Shown here one piece after another: positions 23,332 through 58,084 of a stretch of 64,000 nt of DNA. Source of the DNA: a phage; sequence record PZ000613.1. The stretch is one strand, 5' to 3'. The translations under genes were made by a program, and so were the position numbers. Numbering within the stretch: the stretch's first letter is position 1; the number at the start of each line of letters is the position of its first letter. The notes beneath the pieces are model-generated. The model saw nothing but the letters and a program-made list of their open reading frames with translations. It was not told where the DNA came from and made no database searches.

Positions 23332-23336
23332 AGAGA

Positions 23337-23366
23337 GGCTGCCTTCGGGCGGCCTTTGTTGTTTTA
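23337..23366 (+). terminator. rho-independent terminator
   Basis: AGGCTGCC-TTCG-GGCGGCCT hairpin followed by TTGTTGTTTT. Confidence 0.55.
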
Positions 23367-24419: not shown

Positions 24420-24495
24420 GCGCTCTTAGCTCAATGGATAGAGCAGTAGCCTTCTAAGCTATTGGTTACAGGTTCGAGTCCTGTAGGGCGCACCA
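24420..24495 (+). tRNA. tRNA-Arg (anticodon UCU), CCA encoded
   Basis: Cloverleaf read by eye: acceptor GCGCTCT/AGGGCGC, D-arm GCTC-AATGGAT-AGAGC, anticodon stem GTAGC/GCTAT with loop CTTCTAA (UCU), T-arm ACAGG-TTCGAGT-CCTGT, discriminator A plus CCA. Confidence 0.85.
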
Positions 24496-24635
24496 CATTT
24501 AGGGCTAGTATGGGTGCGGCACCAGAGTTAGTGTATCCCTGTTGAGGCAAGTGCTTTTATAACAGTGGGAATTACTTTCTTAGTGAGCTTCTGGTTCGAT
24601 TCCAGATAGTCCACCAAATCAAATAGGAGGTAGTT

Positions 24636-24917
24636 ATGAGTTGGGGTGGTGTAATATCCTTAATCTGTATCTTCCTTGTCTGCATAGCCCTTACAGGCTG
24701 CGTACAGAGCCGTCCTGATGGATGGTGTGCAGTAGCAGTGGAAGGTATTTGTGTTTCTCGCTGGCACCAAGGCGAGAAGGTTCCTTCTGGTGAAATTGAT
24801 ATGCGTTACAGTGGTATCTCATGTCTTAACGGTGCAGCAGTAGATGAGGAGACTAAAACCTTATCCAATGCTCAATGGTGTGGCGGTTCTGTAACAACAA
24901 CCGGTAAGGAGTGGTAA
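24636..24917 (+). CDS. lipoprotein (93 aa)
   Basis: Strong RBS AGGAGG; signal peptide ending in lipobox LTGC; several further Cys residues. Confidence 0.55.
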   Translation: MSWGGVISLICIFLVCIALTGCVQSRPDGWCAVAVEGICVSRWHQGEKVPSGEIDMRYSGISCLNGAAVDEETKTLSNAQWCGGSVTTTGKEW

Positions 24918-25396: not shown

Positions 25397-25698
25397 GGAG
25401 TTCAGTATAAATGAAACTCAAACGAATGCTTTTTCGAAATGGAATGTACACTCTCCGAGAATCCCCTAAAGGGGACACTACAAAGTGGAGTGTAGGGGAT
25501 TGGATTTCATTCATAGATGAGAAGGGCAGCTGGATTCTCGAGTAACAGGAGCCTGTATGAGTTGTTTTGGTGGCGGTGAAGTGGATGACGATGATGATAT
25601 GGAATCTAACGGTACATGTCCTGATTGTGGATGTGAGACGTGGGATGGCGTGTCAGTGTATCCTGCCTGTAGTTACTCACCAGTGATCTGTAAAACAT

Positions 25699-25956
25699 GT
25701 GGAGATCAACCTTGTGACCAGTCTTGTTAGTGTGTTAATAGCCTATTTAATAGGGTCAGTAGTATCAGGTGTTCTAATTAAGATCATAGATGTTAAAGGT
25801 AATCAGTGTTTCAGAGGTTGGGATGGTGAACCAGATCTCGGAAAGATAGCAGCTATGGTTTTCTTATGGCCTATTATTGCTGTACTGTTTATAGCACTTG
25901 TAGCATGGGCTGCCCTTTGGGATTTCATCCTTCCTAACAAAAAGTATGAGGACTAA
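25699..25956 (+). CDS. small membrane protein (start uncertain)
   Basis: Two predicted transmembrane helices; shares an LWPI motif with the 26099 ORF. Confidence 0.35.
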   Translation: MEINLVTSLVSVLIAYLIGSVVSGVLIKIIDVKGNQCFRGWDGEPDLGKIAAMVFLWPIIAVLFIALVAWAALWDFILPNKKYED

Positions 25957-26098: not shown

Positions 26099-26356
26099 AT
26101 GGGTTTACTTGATATTTTTATCTCAGTTTACTTTATTGGAGTATTCCTTTCTGTTTTAGTGCTGAAACTACTATACAAGAAAGGTCTACTAAAAGGGGTC
26201 ATTACAACAGGGTCTACCAGCTCTGAACCTGATGAGATGATGGTTGTGATCTTAATTGTGTTATGGCCCATCTCAATACTGGCAGGAGTCTGTTATCCGA
26301 TAGGTTGGCTTCTGTCTAAAGCATATGATGCAGTTATACGTTTTATATTTAAGTAA
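26099..26356 (+). CDS. small membrane protein (85 aa)
   Basis: Two hydrophobic helices (ISVYFIGVFLSVLVL, VVILIVLWPISILAGV). Confidence 0.45.
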   Translation: MGLLDIFISVYFIGVFLSVLVLKLLYKKGLLKGVITTGSTSSEPDEMMVVILIVLWPISILAGVCYPIGWLLSKAYDAVIRFIFK

Positions 26357-26596
26357 TATCGTGAAGGATTCTTACGAGAGTCCTTTGAGATAGGACTTCA
26401 GATCTCCTATCAAACTAACATTCATGTAACTAGCCCATAAGGGCGTTACCCTTTAATAACCCAGCCCACTAAGGGGGCGGGAGTTTAGTGCTGGATTGGC
26501 TTTACGCTTATTCCTACAAAGGCAACCGATTGTTAGATCTTACATGCAATATTAACTAATAGGGTAAGGGAGGATTCGTCCCCTCCCCCTATTTTA

Positions 26597-56528: not shown

Positions 56529-56553
56529 TAGCCACCTCCGGGTGGCTTTTTTC
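56529..56553 (+). terminator. rho-independent terminator
   Basis: GCCACC-TCCG-GGTGGC hairpin followed by TTTTTT. Confidence 0.65.
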
Positions 56554-56800
56554 GTTGGAGACAACATGCAAAACACATTAAGTGATAACTTAGGGTTTAT
56601 CGTTTTCTCAGCTCTTGTATTCTTTGGTGGTATGAAGTTTAACGAGTACCAAACAGACAGCAGTAATCTGGACAAAGAGAAGCACCAGCAAGAGTTAGAG
56701 ATTGAAAGAAGTAGGGCAGCTGATGAAGTTGCTCAGAGGGTTCTTACCGGTTTATCTAACTGGAAGAAGAACACGGAAACCGTTTATAAAGAGATGCATT

Positions 56801-58084
<1,284 letters not shown>

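What the first reader, a model, noticed from the sequence alone, without database searches (positions are those of the whole stretch)
24636..24917. Early-region Cys-rich lipoprotein: candidate receptor-masking or superinfection-exclusion factor
Seen in sequence: strong AGGAGG RBS, signal peptide with lipobox LTGC, and a 70-residue mature part containing four further Cys (disulfide-type spacing), encoded right after the tRNA in the plus-strand block. Established knowledge: some lytic phages (for example T5 Llp) make an early lipoprotein that blocks their own outer-membrane receptor. Inference: analogous function here.
Basis: partly seen in the sequence, partly recalled or inferred. Interest (0 to 1): 0.4.

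Follow-up and report, generated by a model that had tools for sequence, protein, structure and literature searches.

The report
Phage lipoprotein that likely masks LptD
This small early gene of a phiEco32-like coliphage encodes a relative of a phage lipoprotein that has been seen bound to the inside face of the bacterial LPS exporter LptD, where it blocks phage attachment, so it is very probably a superinfection-exclusion factor and hints that this phage group uses LptD as a receptor.

Summary
Window 24636-24917(+) encodes a 93-aa protein with an AGGAGG ribosome-binding site, a lipobox LTG|C (Cys22) and four further Cys.

The window is a phiEco32-like Kuravirus. The ortholog phi32_106 has been annotated "putative phage lipoprotein" since 2008.

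Rtp45 is the superinfection-exclusion lipoprotein of siphophage Rtp. Cryo-EM shows it bound to the periplasmic side of LptDE, displacing loop EL4 so that the phage receptor-binding protein cannot bind. Another family member, mEp021 gp81, excludes its own phage when expressed from a plasmid.

The protein is not related to T5 Llp or T1 Cor, and it is not the o-spanin.

Relatives of this phage also carry a DUF6453 homolog of the LptD-binding protein, directly after a J-like tail-needle gene. That gene lies outside this window. This suggests, but does not prove, that kuraviruses use LptD as their terminal receptor.

The parts
24625..24630 (+). Ribosome-binding site AGGAGG, 5 nt upstream of the ATG
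   Evidence: Read directly from the sequence.
24636..24917 (+). Coding sequence of the 93-aa prolipoprotein, stop codon included. It is the ortholog of phiEco32 phi32_106 and SU10 gp104.
   Evidence: ORF list. Pfam PF24052 at E=6.1e-36, 122.7 bits against a cut-off of 27. 95.7% identical to phi32_106. Substitutions are biased to third codon positions.
24636..24698 (+). Signal peptide, residues 1-21 (MSWGGVISLICIFLVCIALTG). It is hydrophobic and has no Lys/Arg in the n-region.
   Evidence: Sequence and pattern match. The AF2 model has a helix at residues 3-20.
24690..24701 (+). Lipobox L19-T20-G21-C22. Cys22 is the predicted lipidated first residue of the mature protein.
   Evidence: Regex match. 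Cys22 is invariant and Gly21 nearly invariant across 24 family members.
24699..24914 (+). Mature lipoprotein, residues 22-93 (72 aa, about 7.7 kDa, pI 4.9). Val at +2 predicts outer-membrane sorting.
   Evidence: The AF2 model is all-beta for residues 31-92, mean pLDDT 85.
24651..24857 (+). Core homologous to Rtp45 (residues 6-74), including RPDGWC...GxC and the VPSGEIDMRY hairpin motif.
24726..24752 (+). Cys31...Cys39, equivalent to the Cys30-Cys38 disulfide seen in the Rtp45 structure.
   Evidence: Alignment to 9rps_D. Both Cys are invariant in the family alignment. The disulfide is described in PMC12685063.
24822..24881 (+). Second Cys pair (Cys63, Cys82) flanking a variable-length insert. 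It is present in Kuravirus alleles (93, 99 and 108 aa) and a few other long-form members, and absent from Rtp45.
   Evidence: Family alignment. Allele lengths. That the pair forms a disulfide is inferred only.

Best explanation
**What it is.** The gene encodes a small outer-membrane-anchored periplasmic lipoprotein of the Rtp45 family (Pfam PF24052). It is made from the phage's early gene block.

**Proposed mechanism.**
1. The precursor is exported. It is lipidated at Cys22 and cleaved by signal peptidase II.
2. [quoted passage not shown]
3. It docks on the periplasmic side of the LptD barrel of the LptDE(M) lipopolysaccharide translocon and pushes a beta-hairpin up the lumen.
4. This displaces extracellular loops (EL4 in the Rtp45 complex). 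Phage receptor-binding proteins of the DUF6453 type can then no longer bind from outside.

**Consequence.** The infected cell, and later its debris, stops adsorbing LptD-dependent phages. That probably includes the kuravirus itself, because its relatives carry a DUF6453 protein gene immediately after the J-like tail-needle gene.

**Shown here:**
- family membership;
- the conserved lipobox and disulfide Cys;
- fold agreement with Rtp45;
- presence of the DUF6453 gene in relatives.

**Shown by others, for relatives only:**
- LptDE binding and loop displacement (Rtp45);
- exclusion on expression (mEp021 gp81).

**Inferred:**
- lipidation of this protein;
- LptD as its target;
- early timing;
- that the phage's own adsorption is what is blocked.
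For: **Family membership and fold**
- Pfam PF24052, full length, 122.7 bits against a cut-off of 27.
- PDB sequence search gives one significant hit, 9RPS chain D (Rtp45), E=7.9e-16. It aligns RPDGWC..G.CV..W..G..VP.GE.D.RY.
- The AF2 model (pLDDT 85) has 9rps_D as its top Foldseek hit (probability 1.00).
- Invariant family columns are the lipobox Cys22, Cys31 and Cys39 (the Rtp45 C30-C38 disulfide), Gly29 and Gly60.

**Mechanism known for relatives**
- Rtp45 mechanism: PMC12685063.
- mEp021 gp81 is PF24052 (E=5.6e-31) and excludes mEp021 and mEp515 when expressed from a plasmid (PMC11893012).

**Link between the family and LptD**
- Among tested siphoviruses, the protein family encoded beside these lipoproteins tracks LptD specifically. 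I identify that family as DUF6453 from the Pfam hits of Rtp44, Bas84_0026 and mEp021 gp80.

**The partner gene in Kuravirus relatives**
- SU10 gp19, phiEco32 gp21, Bas86_0016 and WFI101126_00018 are DUF6453 (E about 1e-23 to 1e-25).
- WFI101126_00018 hits the LptD-bound protein 9RPT_C at E=1.2e-9.
- The gene starts 1 nt after the tail-needle gene. The needle carries the J C-terminal domain PF09327.

**Parallels and co-occurrence**
- The nearest relatives listed outside Gordonclarkvirinae are Webervirus proteins: for the lipoprotein among the phage records (about 41-42% identity) and for the DUF6453 protein (27%).
- Webervirus F20 has the same layout: J followed directly by DUF6453, with the lipoprotein gene unlinked.
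- The record counts for the two families are nearly identical across host categories.

**Timing**
- The gene lies in the cluster assigned to the early class in phiEco32 and SU10.
Against: - No experiment exists on any Kuravirus lipoprotein.
- The signal peptide lacks a positively charged n-region, so export and lipidation are predicted, not certain.
- SU10 gp19 (DUF6453) was not among the 34 proteins found by mass spectrometry of SU10 particles, although gp16-18 and gp20-24 were. It is also not mentioned in the SU10 cryo-EM study.
- The DUF6453 gene is not in this window. It should lie about 5.6 kb beyond the right end.
- Published models assume that Kuravirus short tail fibres bind LPS core. 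Only O-antigen dependence has been shown.
- mEp021 and mEp515, which carry the same module, were reported to need OmpA, leakily; LptD was not tested.
- Lipoprotein alleles do not co-vary with DUF6453 alleles among Gordonclarkvirinae.
- Long-form homologs also occur in early-like blocks of unrelated large phage contigs with no adjacent DUF6453 gene.
Confidence: 0.7

Rival explanations
1. **Orphan exclusion gene.** The lipoprotein binds LptDE as above, but it only shuts out competing LptD-dependent siphophages. The kuravirus itself does not use LptD, and its DUF6453 protein has some other, non-virion role.
For: - SU10 gp19 was not detected in virions by mass spectrometry, nor in reconstructions.
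- The lipoprotein gene is about 45 kb from the tail genes, in a mosaic early block.
- Long-form homologs sit alone in early-like blocks of unrelated large phage contigs.
- Lipoprotein and DUF6453 alleles reassort freely.
Against: - Every Gordonclarkvirinae genome I examined for both genes has both: phiEco32, SU10, WFI101126, CHD5UKE1, ES17, IME267, 172-1, Bas86, NC-B, PE006 and Bas94.
- The DUF6453 gene is translationally adjacent to a J-like needle, exactly as the receptor-binding protein gene follows J in Webervirus F20.
- A single copy per virion on a flexible needle, resolved only at 15 Å with imposed C3 symmetry, could easily be missed.
Confidence: 0.2
2. **Different target or purpose.** The Kuravirus branch of the family has been retargeted to another outer-membrane protein, or it acts mainly by throttling LPS/O-antigen export rather than by blocking adsorption.
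For: - Identity to Rtp45 is only 42%, over 70 residues.
- There is an extra Cys pair and a variable insert that Rtp45 lacks.
- mEp021 and mEp515, which carry the same module, depend on OmpA.
- Kuraviruses need O-antigen, which LptDE exports.
Against: - LptD specificity holds across module pairs that have diverged at least as far. Rtp45 and the Oekolampad lipoprotein share 35% identity, and Rtp44 and the Oekolampad-type protein Bas84_0026 share 32%.
- It also holds across 12 tested LptD-specific phages.
- mEp021 gp80 is 63% identical to Rtp44. Its OmpA dependence is leaky, and dual receptors are documented (Bas01 needs NupG plus LptD).
- Existing O-antigen would not be removed within one lytic cycle (inference).
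Confidence: 0.07
3. **Lysis protein.** It is the outer-membrane spanin subunit (Rz1-like lipoprotein) of the phage.
For: It is a small outer-membrane lipoprotein with Cys residues, as o-spanins are.
Against: - The window has its own overlapped spanin pair 32 kb away. The i-spanin is at 56542-56916(+), 90% identical to the 'Rz-like spanin' Bas94_0029.
- An overlapping ORF at 56702-57061(+) carries a lipobox LSAC.
- The gene here has no adjacent i-spanin, lies in the early block, and is homologous to Rtp45.
Confidence: 0.01
4. **FhuA blocker.** It is a member of the T5 Llp family or of the Cor family (phi80, N15, T1) and inactivates FhuA.
For: It has the same general design (a small early lipoprotein with disulfides).
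Against: - The PDB sequence search at E<=10 returns no Llp chain.
- BLASTP against T1 Cor gives E=2.4. T1 Cor scores 17.7 bits against PF24052, below the cut-off of 27, and the match includes its signal peptide and lipobox (residues 3-51).
Confidence: 0.02

Closest known systems
Rtp45, the superinfection-exclusion lipoprotein of Escherichia phage Rtp (PDB 9RPS chain D; Pfam PF24052)
   Same: - Same Pfam family.
- 42% identity over the core.
- Same lipobox Cys and same disulfide pair.
- The predicted fold superposes at 2.4 Å.
- Presumed same target (LptDE) and same steric mechanism.
   Different: - Rtp45 is 76 aa and sits next to its receptor-binding protein gene rtp44, opposite J, in a siphovirus.
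- The window protein is 93 aa, with a second Cys pair and a variable insert.
- Its signal peptide n-region is uncharged.
- Its gene lies in the early block of a podovirus, about 45 kb from the DUF6453 gene of relatives.
Lpp021 (gp81) of temperate phage mEp021
   Same: It is a PF24052 member and 34-40% identical to the window protein. It is the family member with a direct exclusion phenotype.
   Different: It belongs to a prophage, lies adjacent to a DUF6453 gene (gp80) and J, and is a short form. Its phage was reported as OmpA-dependent.
Webervirus (Klebsiella T1-like) lipoproteins, for example Enterobacter phage F20 AEQ39197
   Same: - They are the closest relatives among the phage records outside Gordonclarkvirinae (42% over 87 aa).
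- The gene is likewise unlinked from the DUF6453 gene, which directly follows J.
   Different: The host is Klebsiella/Enterobacter and the phage is a siphovirus. The protein lacks the second Cys pair. No functional data exist.
T5 Llp (FhuA-blocking early lipoprotein)
   Same: It works alike in outline. It is an early small lipoprotein on the periplasmic side of the phage's outer-membrane receptor that abolishes binding of the receptor-binding protein (described).
   Different: - No sequence or fold similarity was detected.
- Llp acts on a TonB-dependent transporter by long-range allostery. Rtp45 acts on LptD by physically displacing loops.
Cor of T1, phi80 and N15
   Same: It is a small lipoprotein encoded in tail/receptor-binding protein loci that excludes phages using the same receptor (annotation).
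   Different: T1 Cor scores below the PF24052 threshold and shows no significant similarity to the window protein. Its receptor class is FhuA.
Pseudomonas podovirus DEV (gp54-LptD)
   Same: It is a precedent for a podovirus that uses O-antigen as primary receptor and LptD as secondary receptor. This is the scheme proposed here for kuraviruses.
   Different: It belongs to a different phage family and, by the paper's description, has a different receptor-binding apparatus. I did not compare the sequences. I saw no exclusion lipoprotein in its abstract.

Membership tests
Pfam PF24052 / Rtp45-type LptDE-binding exclusion lipoproteins | Full-length match to the family profile above the curated threshold | tested here: met
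   122.7 bits against a cut-off of 27, E=6.1e-36, residues 3-93 on profile positions 1-80 of 80.
Pfam PF24052 / Rtp45-type LptDE-binding exclusion lipoproteins | Significant sequence and fold similarity to the structurally characterised member Rtp45 | tested here: met
Pfam PF24052 / Rtp45-type LptDE-binding exclusion lipoproteins | Signal peptidase II signal with a lipobox Cys | tested here: met
   Lipobox pattern matched at residues 12-22, and Cys22 is invariant in the family. Caveats: there is no Lys/Arg in the n-region, and actual lipidation cannot be tested here.
Pfam PF24052 / Rtp45-type LptDE-binding exclusion lipoproteins | Conserved Cys pair forming the Rtp45 C30-C38 disulfide | tested here: met
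   Cys31 and Cys39 align to Rtp45 C30 and C38 and are invariant in 24 and 26 sequences.
Pfam PF24052 / Rtp45-type LptDE-binding exclusion lipoproteins | Binds the periplasmic face of LptDE and displaces the extracellular loop EL4 | not testable with these tools
   Known only for Rtp45. The authors report that AF3 complex predictions are wrong, and no multimer tool was available.
Pfam PF24052 / Rtp45-type LptDE-binding exclusion lipoproteins | Expression alone excludes the cognate phage | not testable with these tools
   Shown for mEp021 gp81. No data exist for any Kuravirus.
Pfam PF24052 / Rtp45-type LptDE-binding exclusion lipoproteins | Typical (not strictly defining) feature: the gene lies next to a DUF6453 receptor-binding protein gene at the J locus | tested here: not met
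   There is no DUF6453 gene in the 64-kb window. In relatives it lies about 45 kb away, after the tail needle. The same unlinked layout occurs in Webervirus F20.
T5 Llp family | Sequence or fold similarity to Llp | tested here: not met
T5 Llp family | Blocks FhuA | not testable with these tools
   Needs plating and adsorption assays.
Cor family (T1, phi80, N15) | Sequence similarity to Cor | tested here: not met
   BLASTP against T1 Cor gives E=2.4. T1 Cor scores 17.7 bits, below the 27-bit cut-off for PF24052.
Outer-membrane spanin (Rz1-like) | The gene is embedded in, overlapping or adjacent to an i-spanin gene within the lysis or late genes | tested here: not met
   There is no i-spanin nearby. 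A separate overlapped spanin pair lies at 56542-57061.

The most novel reading that the evidence does not exclude
**Proposed reading.** Kuraviruses (prolate C3 podophages such as phiEco32 and SU10) carry the complete LptD-recognition module of small siphoviruses:
- a tail needle that is a shortened J C-terminus;
- a DUF6453 receptor-binding protein encoded immediately after it;
- an unlinked early Rtp45-type exclusion lipoprotein, which is the gene in this window.

On this reading they use O-antigen for first contact and the essential LPS exporter LptD as the terminal receptor that triggers needle release. LPS core bound by the short tail fibres, the current assumption, would not be the terminal receptor.

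**Status in the literature.** No paper in the held library links Kuravirus to LptD.
Probability: 0.45. Interest if true: 0.65.

Novelty: new member of a known kind. Interest (0 to 1): 0.5.

Why it matters
**The gene itself is ordinary.** It is an already annotated 'putative lipoprotein' that can now be given a concrete, structure-based function.

**The wider implication is more interesting.**
- The terminal receptor of Gordonclarkvirinae is unknown. These phages are frequently isolated and are being considered for therapy.
- An LptD-type exclusion lipoprotein together with a DUF6453/J-like needle module gives a specific hypothesis that is cheap to test.
- LptD is essential and conserved, so a second phage morphotype that targets it is relevant to cocktail design and to predicting cross-resistance.
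- If the lipoprotein works, a kuravirus infection would make cells refractory to LptD-dependent siphophages.

It would also be an example of a receptor-recognition and exclusion module shared between siphoviruses and podoviruses.

Tried and rejected
1. **T5 Llp and Cor relationship.** No sequence or fold similarity was found.
2. **o-spanin.** Rejected, because a separate overlapped spanin pair lies at 56.5-57.1 kb.
3. **Search for the cognate DUF6453 gene in the window.**
   - It is absent. tblastn with Rtp44, Bas84_0026 and the Kuravirus tail proteins gives only noise.
   - The sole real hit is the last 300 nt of the window, matching the phi32_26-like gene.
   - The module lies in the roughly 13 kb of genome not covered by the window.
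4. **Co-variation of lipoprotein and DUF6453 alleles among Gordonclarkvirinae.** Not found.
   - WFI101126 has the 93-aa lipoprotein, but its DUF6453 is 68% identical to phiEco32's.
   - Bas94 has a lipoprotein 90% identical to the window's, but its DUF6453 is 45% identical.
   - Bas86 and NC-B have the 108-aa lipoprotein, with DUF6453 at 88%.
   - This is not a decisive test, because the two proteins bind opposite faces of LptD.
5. **Is the needle C-terminus closer to LptD-type J tips than to T1's FhuA-type J?** It is not. All score similarly (E from 1e-5 to 1e-10), so the test is inconclusive.
6. **Residue-level check of Rtp45-LptD contacts.** The contact table (Fig. S16) is an image and is not held as text.
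7. **Other libraries.** NCBIfam has no model for the protein, and PHROG 4281 is 'unknown function'.
8. **The 140-nt spacer upstream.** Rfam and ARAGORN find no bona fide RNA gene there.
9. **Promoter scan of 22.5-26.7 kb.** It found no plus-strand sigma-70 consensus site. The block is bounded by terminator-like hairpins at 23334-23357 and 26568-26587.
10. **Context of the closest metagenomic long-form homologs (P0011, P0012, P0013).** They lie in large contigs from uncharacterised phages or in tiny contigs, with no DUF6453 gene adjacent. The L012 contig region has no match in the phage collection.

Full report
**1. The observation**

Window 24636-24917 (+) is an ATG-initiated ORF of 93 codons. 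An AGGAGG precedes it at 24625-24630, and an in-frame stop lies just upstream, so the start is unambiguous.

The product begins MSWGGVISLICIFLVCIALTG|CVQS. Residues 12-22 fit the standard lipobox pattern. Cys22 would become the lipidated first residue of a 72-aa mature protein, with Val at +2, which predicts outer-membrane sorting. Four further Cys lie at 31, 39, 63 and 82.

tRNA-Arg(TCT) is at 24420-24495, 140 nt upstream.

The only atypical feature is a signal-peptide n-region without Lys/Arg.

The ORF is clearly a gene:
- It matches Pfam PF24052 'Phage_lipoprotein' end to end (E=6e-36).
- It matches PHROG 4281, of unknown function.
- tblastn finds it in 385 phage records.
- 15 of the 19 nucleotide differences from phiEco32 fall at third codon positions.

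**2. What the window is**

The surrounding 4 kb is 92-96% identical to phiEco32-like podophages of the genus Kuravirus, subfamily Gordonclarkvirinae. The ortholog is phi32_106 in phiEco32, 'putative phage lipoprotein' (95.7% identical), and gp104 in SU10. The existence of the lipoprotein gene is therefore already on record, but no function was attached to it.

The gene sits in a plus-strand block of tiny ORFs bounded by terminator-like hairpins at 23334-23357 and 26568-26587. This block corresponds to the cluster that published work assigns to the early class in phiEco32 and SU10. Early timing is thus inferred from position. I did not test it.

**3. What the protein is**

A sequence search of all PDB chains gives one significant hit: chain D of 9RPS, Rtp45 of siphophage Rtp (E=7.9e-16). 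The alignment conserves RPDGWC, the second Cys, and the VP(S/A)GE(I/V)D(M/V)RY stretch.

An AlphaFold2 model built on 26 family sequences (mean pLDDT 85) supports this:
- 9rps_D is its best Foldseek match (probability 1.00, TM 0.73 normalised to the target).

In a 24-sequence family alignment the invariant positions are Cys22 (lipobox), Gly29, Cys31, Cys39 and Gly60. Cys31 and Cys39 correspond to the Cys30-Cys38 disulfide seen in the Rtp45 structure.

The family is small: 16 clusters at 50% identity among 1.84 billion representatives.

Kuravirus alleles (93, 99 and 108 aa) and a few other long forms add a second Cys pair (63 and 82) around a variable-length insert.

**4. What the family does**

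Dunbar et al. (PNAS 2025, PMC12685063) solved LptDE(M)-Rtp45. They report that:
- The lipoprotein binds the periplasmic side of the LptD barrel near strands 5-8, sandwiched between LptE and LptM.
- It forms a beta-sheet with LptD residues 318-323.
- It sends a hairpin up the lumen.
- It displaces extracellular loop EL4 by up to 20 Å. This is incompatible with binding of the phage receptor-binding protein.

A second member has a phenotype. mEp021 gp81 is PF24052 (E=5.6e-31), and it excludes mEp021 and mEp515 when expressed from a plasmid (PMC11893012).

In small siphoviruses these lipoprotein genes accompany a receptor-binding protein family (Rtp44, the Oekolampad protein; Pfam DUF6453). That family is specifically associated with LptD.

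**5. What it is not**

- **Not T5 Llp.** No Llp chain appears in the PDB sequence search even at E<=10, nor among the fold matches.
- **Not Cor.** T1 Cor, the FhuA class, scores below the PF24052 cut-off (17.7 against 27 bits), and the match includes its signal peptide and lipobox. BLASTP against the window protein gives E=2.4.
- **Not the o-spanin.** The window has an i-spanin at 56542-56916 and an overlapping lipobox-bearing ORF at 56702-57061.

**6. Context beyond the window**

tblastn with Rtp44 unexpectedly hit Kuravirus genomes (22-25% identity over 85-90% of the query, E down to 5e-11).

The Kuravirus proteins are SU10 gp19, phiEco32 gp21, Bas86_0016 and WFI101126_00018, each 343-344 aa.
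- They pass the Pfam DUF6453 threshold (84-90 bits against 25).
- WFI101126_00018 hits the LptD-bound Oekolampad protein in 9RPT at E=1.2e-9.

Their gene starts 1 nt after the tail-needle gene (SU10 gp18, phiEco32 gp20).
- The needle carries Pfam PF09327 and aligns with the last roughly 230 residues of J-like central fibres.
- It ends ...RIRIGSW, like J's ...VGTW.

Webervirus F20 has the same layout: J, then DUF6453 directly after it, with the PF24052 gene about 10 kb away among replication genes.

Webervirus proteins are the nearest listed relatives outside Gordonclarkvirinae: of the Kuravirus lipoprotein among phage records (about 41-42%) and of the Kuravirus DUF6453 protein (27%).

The record counts for the two families by organism and host are almost identical. 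Bas94, a distant member of the subfamily, has both genes.

The window itself lacks this tail module. Its right end falls inside the phi32_26-like gene, so the DUF6453 gene should lie about 5.6-6.6 kb further on.

**7. Interpretation**

The best-supported reading is an LptDE-binding exclusion lipoprotein, expressed early, that makes the infected cell and its debris refractory to phages using DUF6453-type receptor-binding proteins.

Whether that includes the kuravirus itself depends on whether gp19/gp21 is a virion receptor-binding protein. There is evidence on both sides.

For:
- The pair is conserved across the subfamily.
- The needle is J-like.
- Webervirus shows the same arrangement.
- The podovirus DEV is a precedent for using O-antigen plus LptD.

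Against:
- gp19 was not detected by mass spectrometry in SU10 particles, although gp16-18 and gp20-24 were.
- It is absent from the cryo-EM account, in which the needle was resolved only to 15 Å with imposed C3 symmetry.

Two further caveats:
- mEp021's reported OmpA dependence is a caveat for target assignment. It is weakened by the 63% identity of its gp80 to Rtp44 and by documented dual-receptor phages (Bas01 needs NupG plus LptD).
- Lipoprotein and DUF6453 alleles do not co-vary. Long-form homologs also occur alone in early-like blocks of unknown large phages. Both points keep the 'orphan exclusion gene' rival alive.

**8. Novelty**

The gene is a new, uncharacterised member of a known and recently explained family, and it was already annotated as a lipoprotein.

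I found no paper in the held library that connects Kuravirus or Gordonclarkvirinae with LptD, Rtp45 or DUF6453. The inference that kuraviruses carry the siphoviral LptD module appears to be new, and it is directly testable.

Noticed in passing
window 24496-24635: The 140-nt spacer between tRNA-Arg and the lipoprotein gene ends in a T-arm/acceptor/CCA-like sequence (TCTGGTTCGATTCCAGATAGTCCACCA). Rfam finds nothing there. ARAGORN calls a degenerate 66-nt 'tRNA-Arg(tct)' at 24551-24616, but only at a relaxed threshold. phiEco32 lacks the spacer (22-nt gap), whereas SU10 has a gap of about 220 nt. It is probably a decayed tRNA duplicate.
   Followed up: partly
window 56542-56916 (+) and 56702-57061 (+): An overlapped spanin pair. 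The first ORF is an Rz-like i-spanin, 90% identical to Bas94_0029. The second, in another frame, contains a signal peptide with lipobox LSAC, so it is a candidate o-spanin. The pair lies in the middle-gene region, far from the holin/endolysin genes of relatives.
   Followed up: partly
beyond the window's right end (about 5.6-6.6 kb past 64000); L008:7559-8590, L009:7946-8977: The DUF6453 homolog of the LptD-binding receptor-binding protein in Kuravirus relatives (SU10 gp19, phiEco32 gp21) follows the J-like tail needle gene. SU10 gp19 is the only product of genes 16-24 not detected by mass spectrometry of particles, and it is not discussed in the SU10 cryo-EM paper.
   Followed up: partly
window 1-64000 (both ends): The window is a permuted, reverse-oriented 64 kb of a roughly 77-kb genome. 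By comparison with relatives, the left end should fall in the long-tail-fibre genes (my inference, not checked). The right end falls inside the phi32_26-like gene (63700-63999 matches aa 343-442). Relatives carry the holin, endolysin, short tail fibre, nozzle, needle, DUF6453 and ejection-protein genes in the roughly 13 kb that is missing.
   Followed up: partly
window 25699-25956 (+) and 26099-26356 (+): Two 85-aa ORFs just downstream in the same block, each with two long hydrophobic stretches. They are possibly small membrane proteins, and possibly paralogs.
   Followed up: no
window 25557-25730 (+): A 57-aa ORF with an acidic run (DDDDD) and ten Cys in CxxC-like spacing. It is a candidate small zinc-binding early protein.
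   Followed up: no
L012:6001-6264, L017:5001-5285: The closest non-Kuravirus long-form homologs (P0011 at 47-48% identity, P0012 at 46-51%, by different alignments) lie in early-like blocks of uncharacterised phage contigs of 50 to 100 kb. Their neighbours include KilA-N, TerB, NAMPT and PRPP-synthase-like genes, with no adjacent DUF6453 gene. A 6-kb stretch of the L012 contig around the gene has no megablast match in the phage collection.
   Followed up: partly
L011:1762-2915 (mEp021 gp81-gp80): mEp021 and mEp515 were published as OmpA-dependent. Yet they carry a DUF6453 protein 63% identical to Rtp44 and a PF24052 lipoprotein, so LptD may be their untested terminal receptor, with OmpA as a second requirement.
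   Followed up: partly
window 24754-24779 (+): A terminator-like hairpin lies inside the lipoprotein coding sequence (9-bp stem followed by a T-rich tail). The number of such sites in the scanned region is no higher than in shuffled sequence, so it is probably chance.
   Followed up: no
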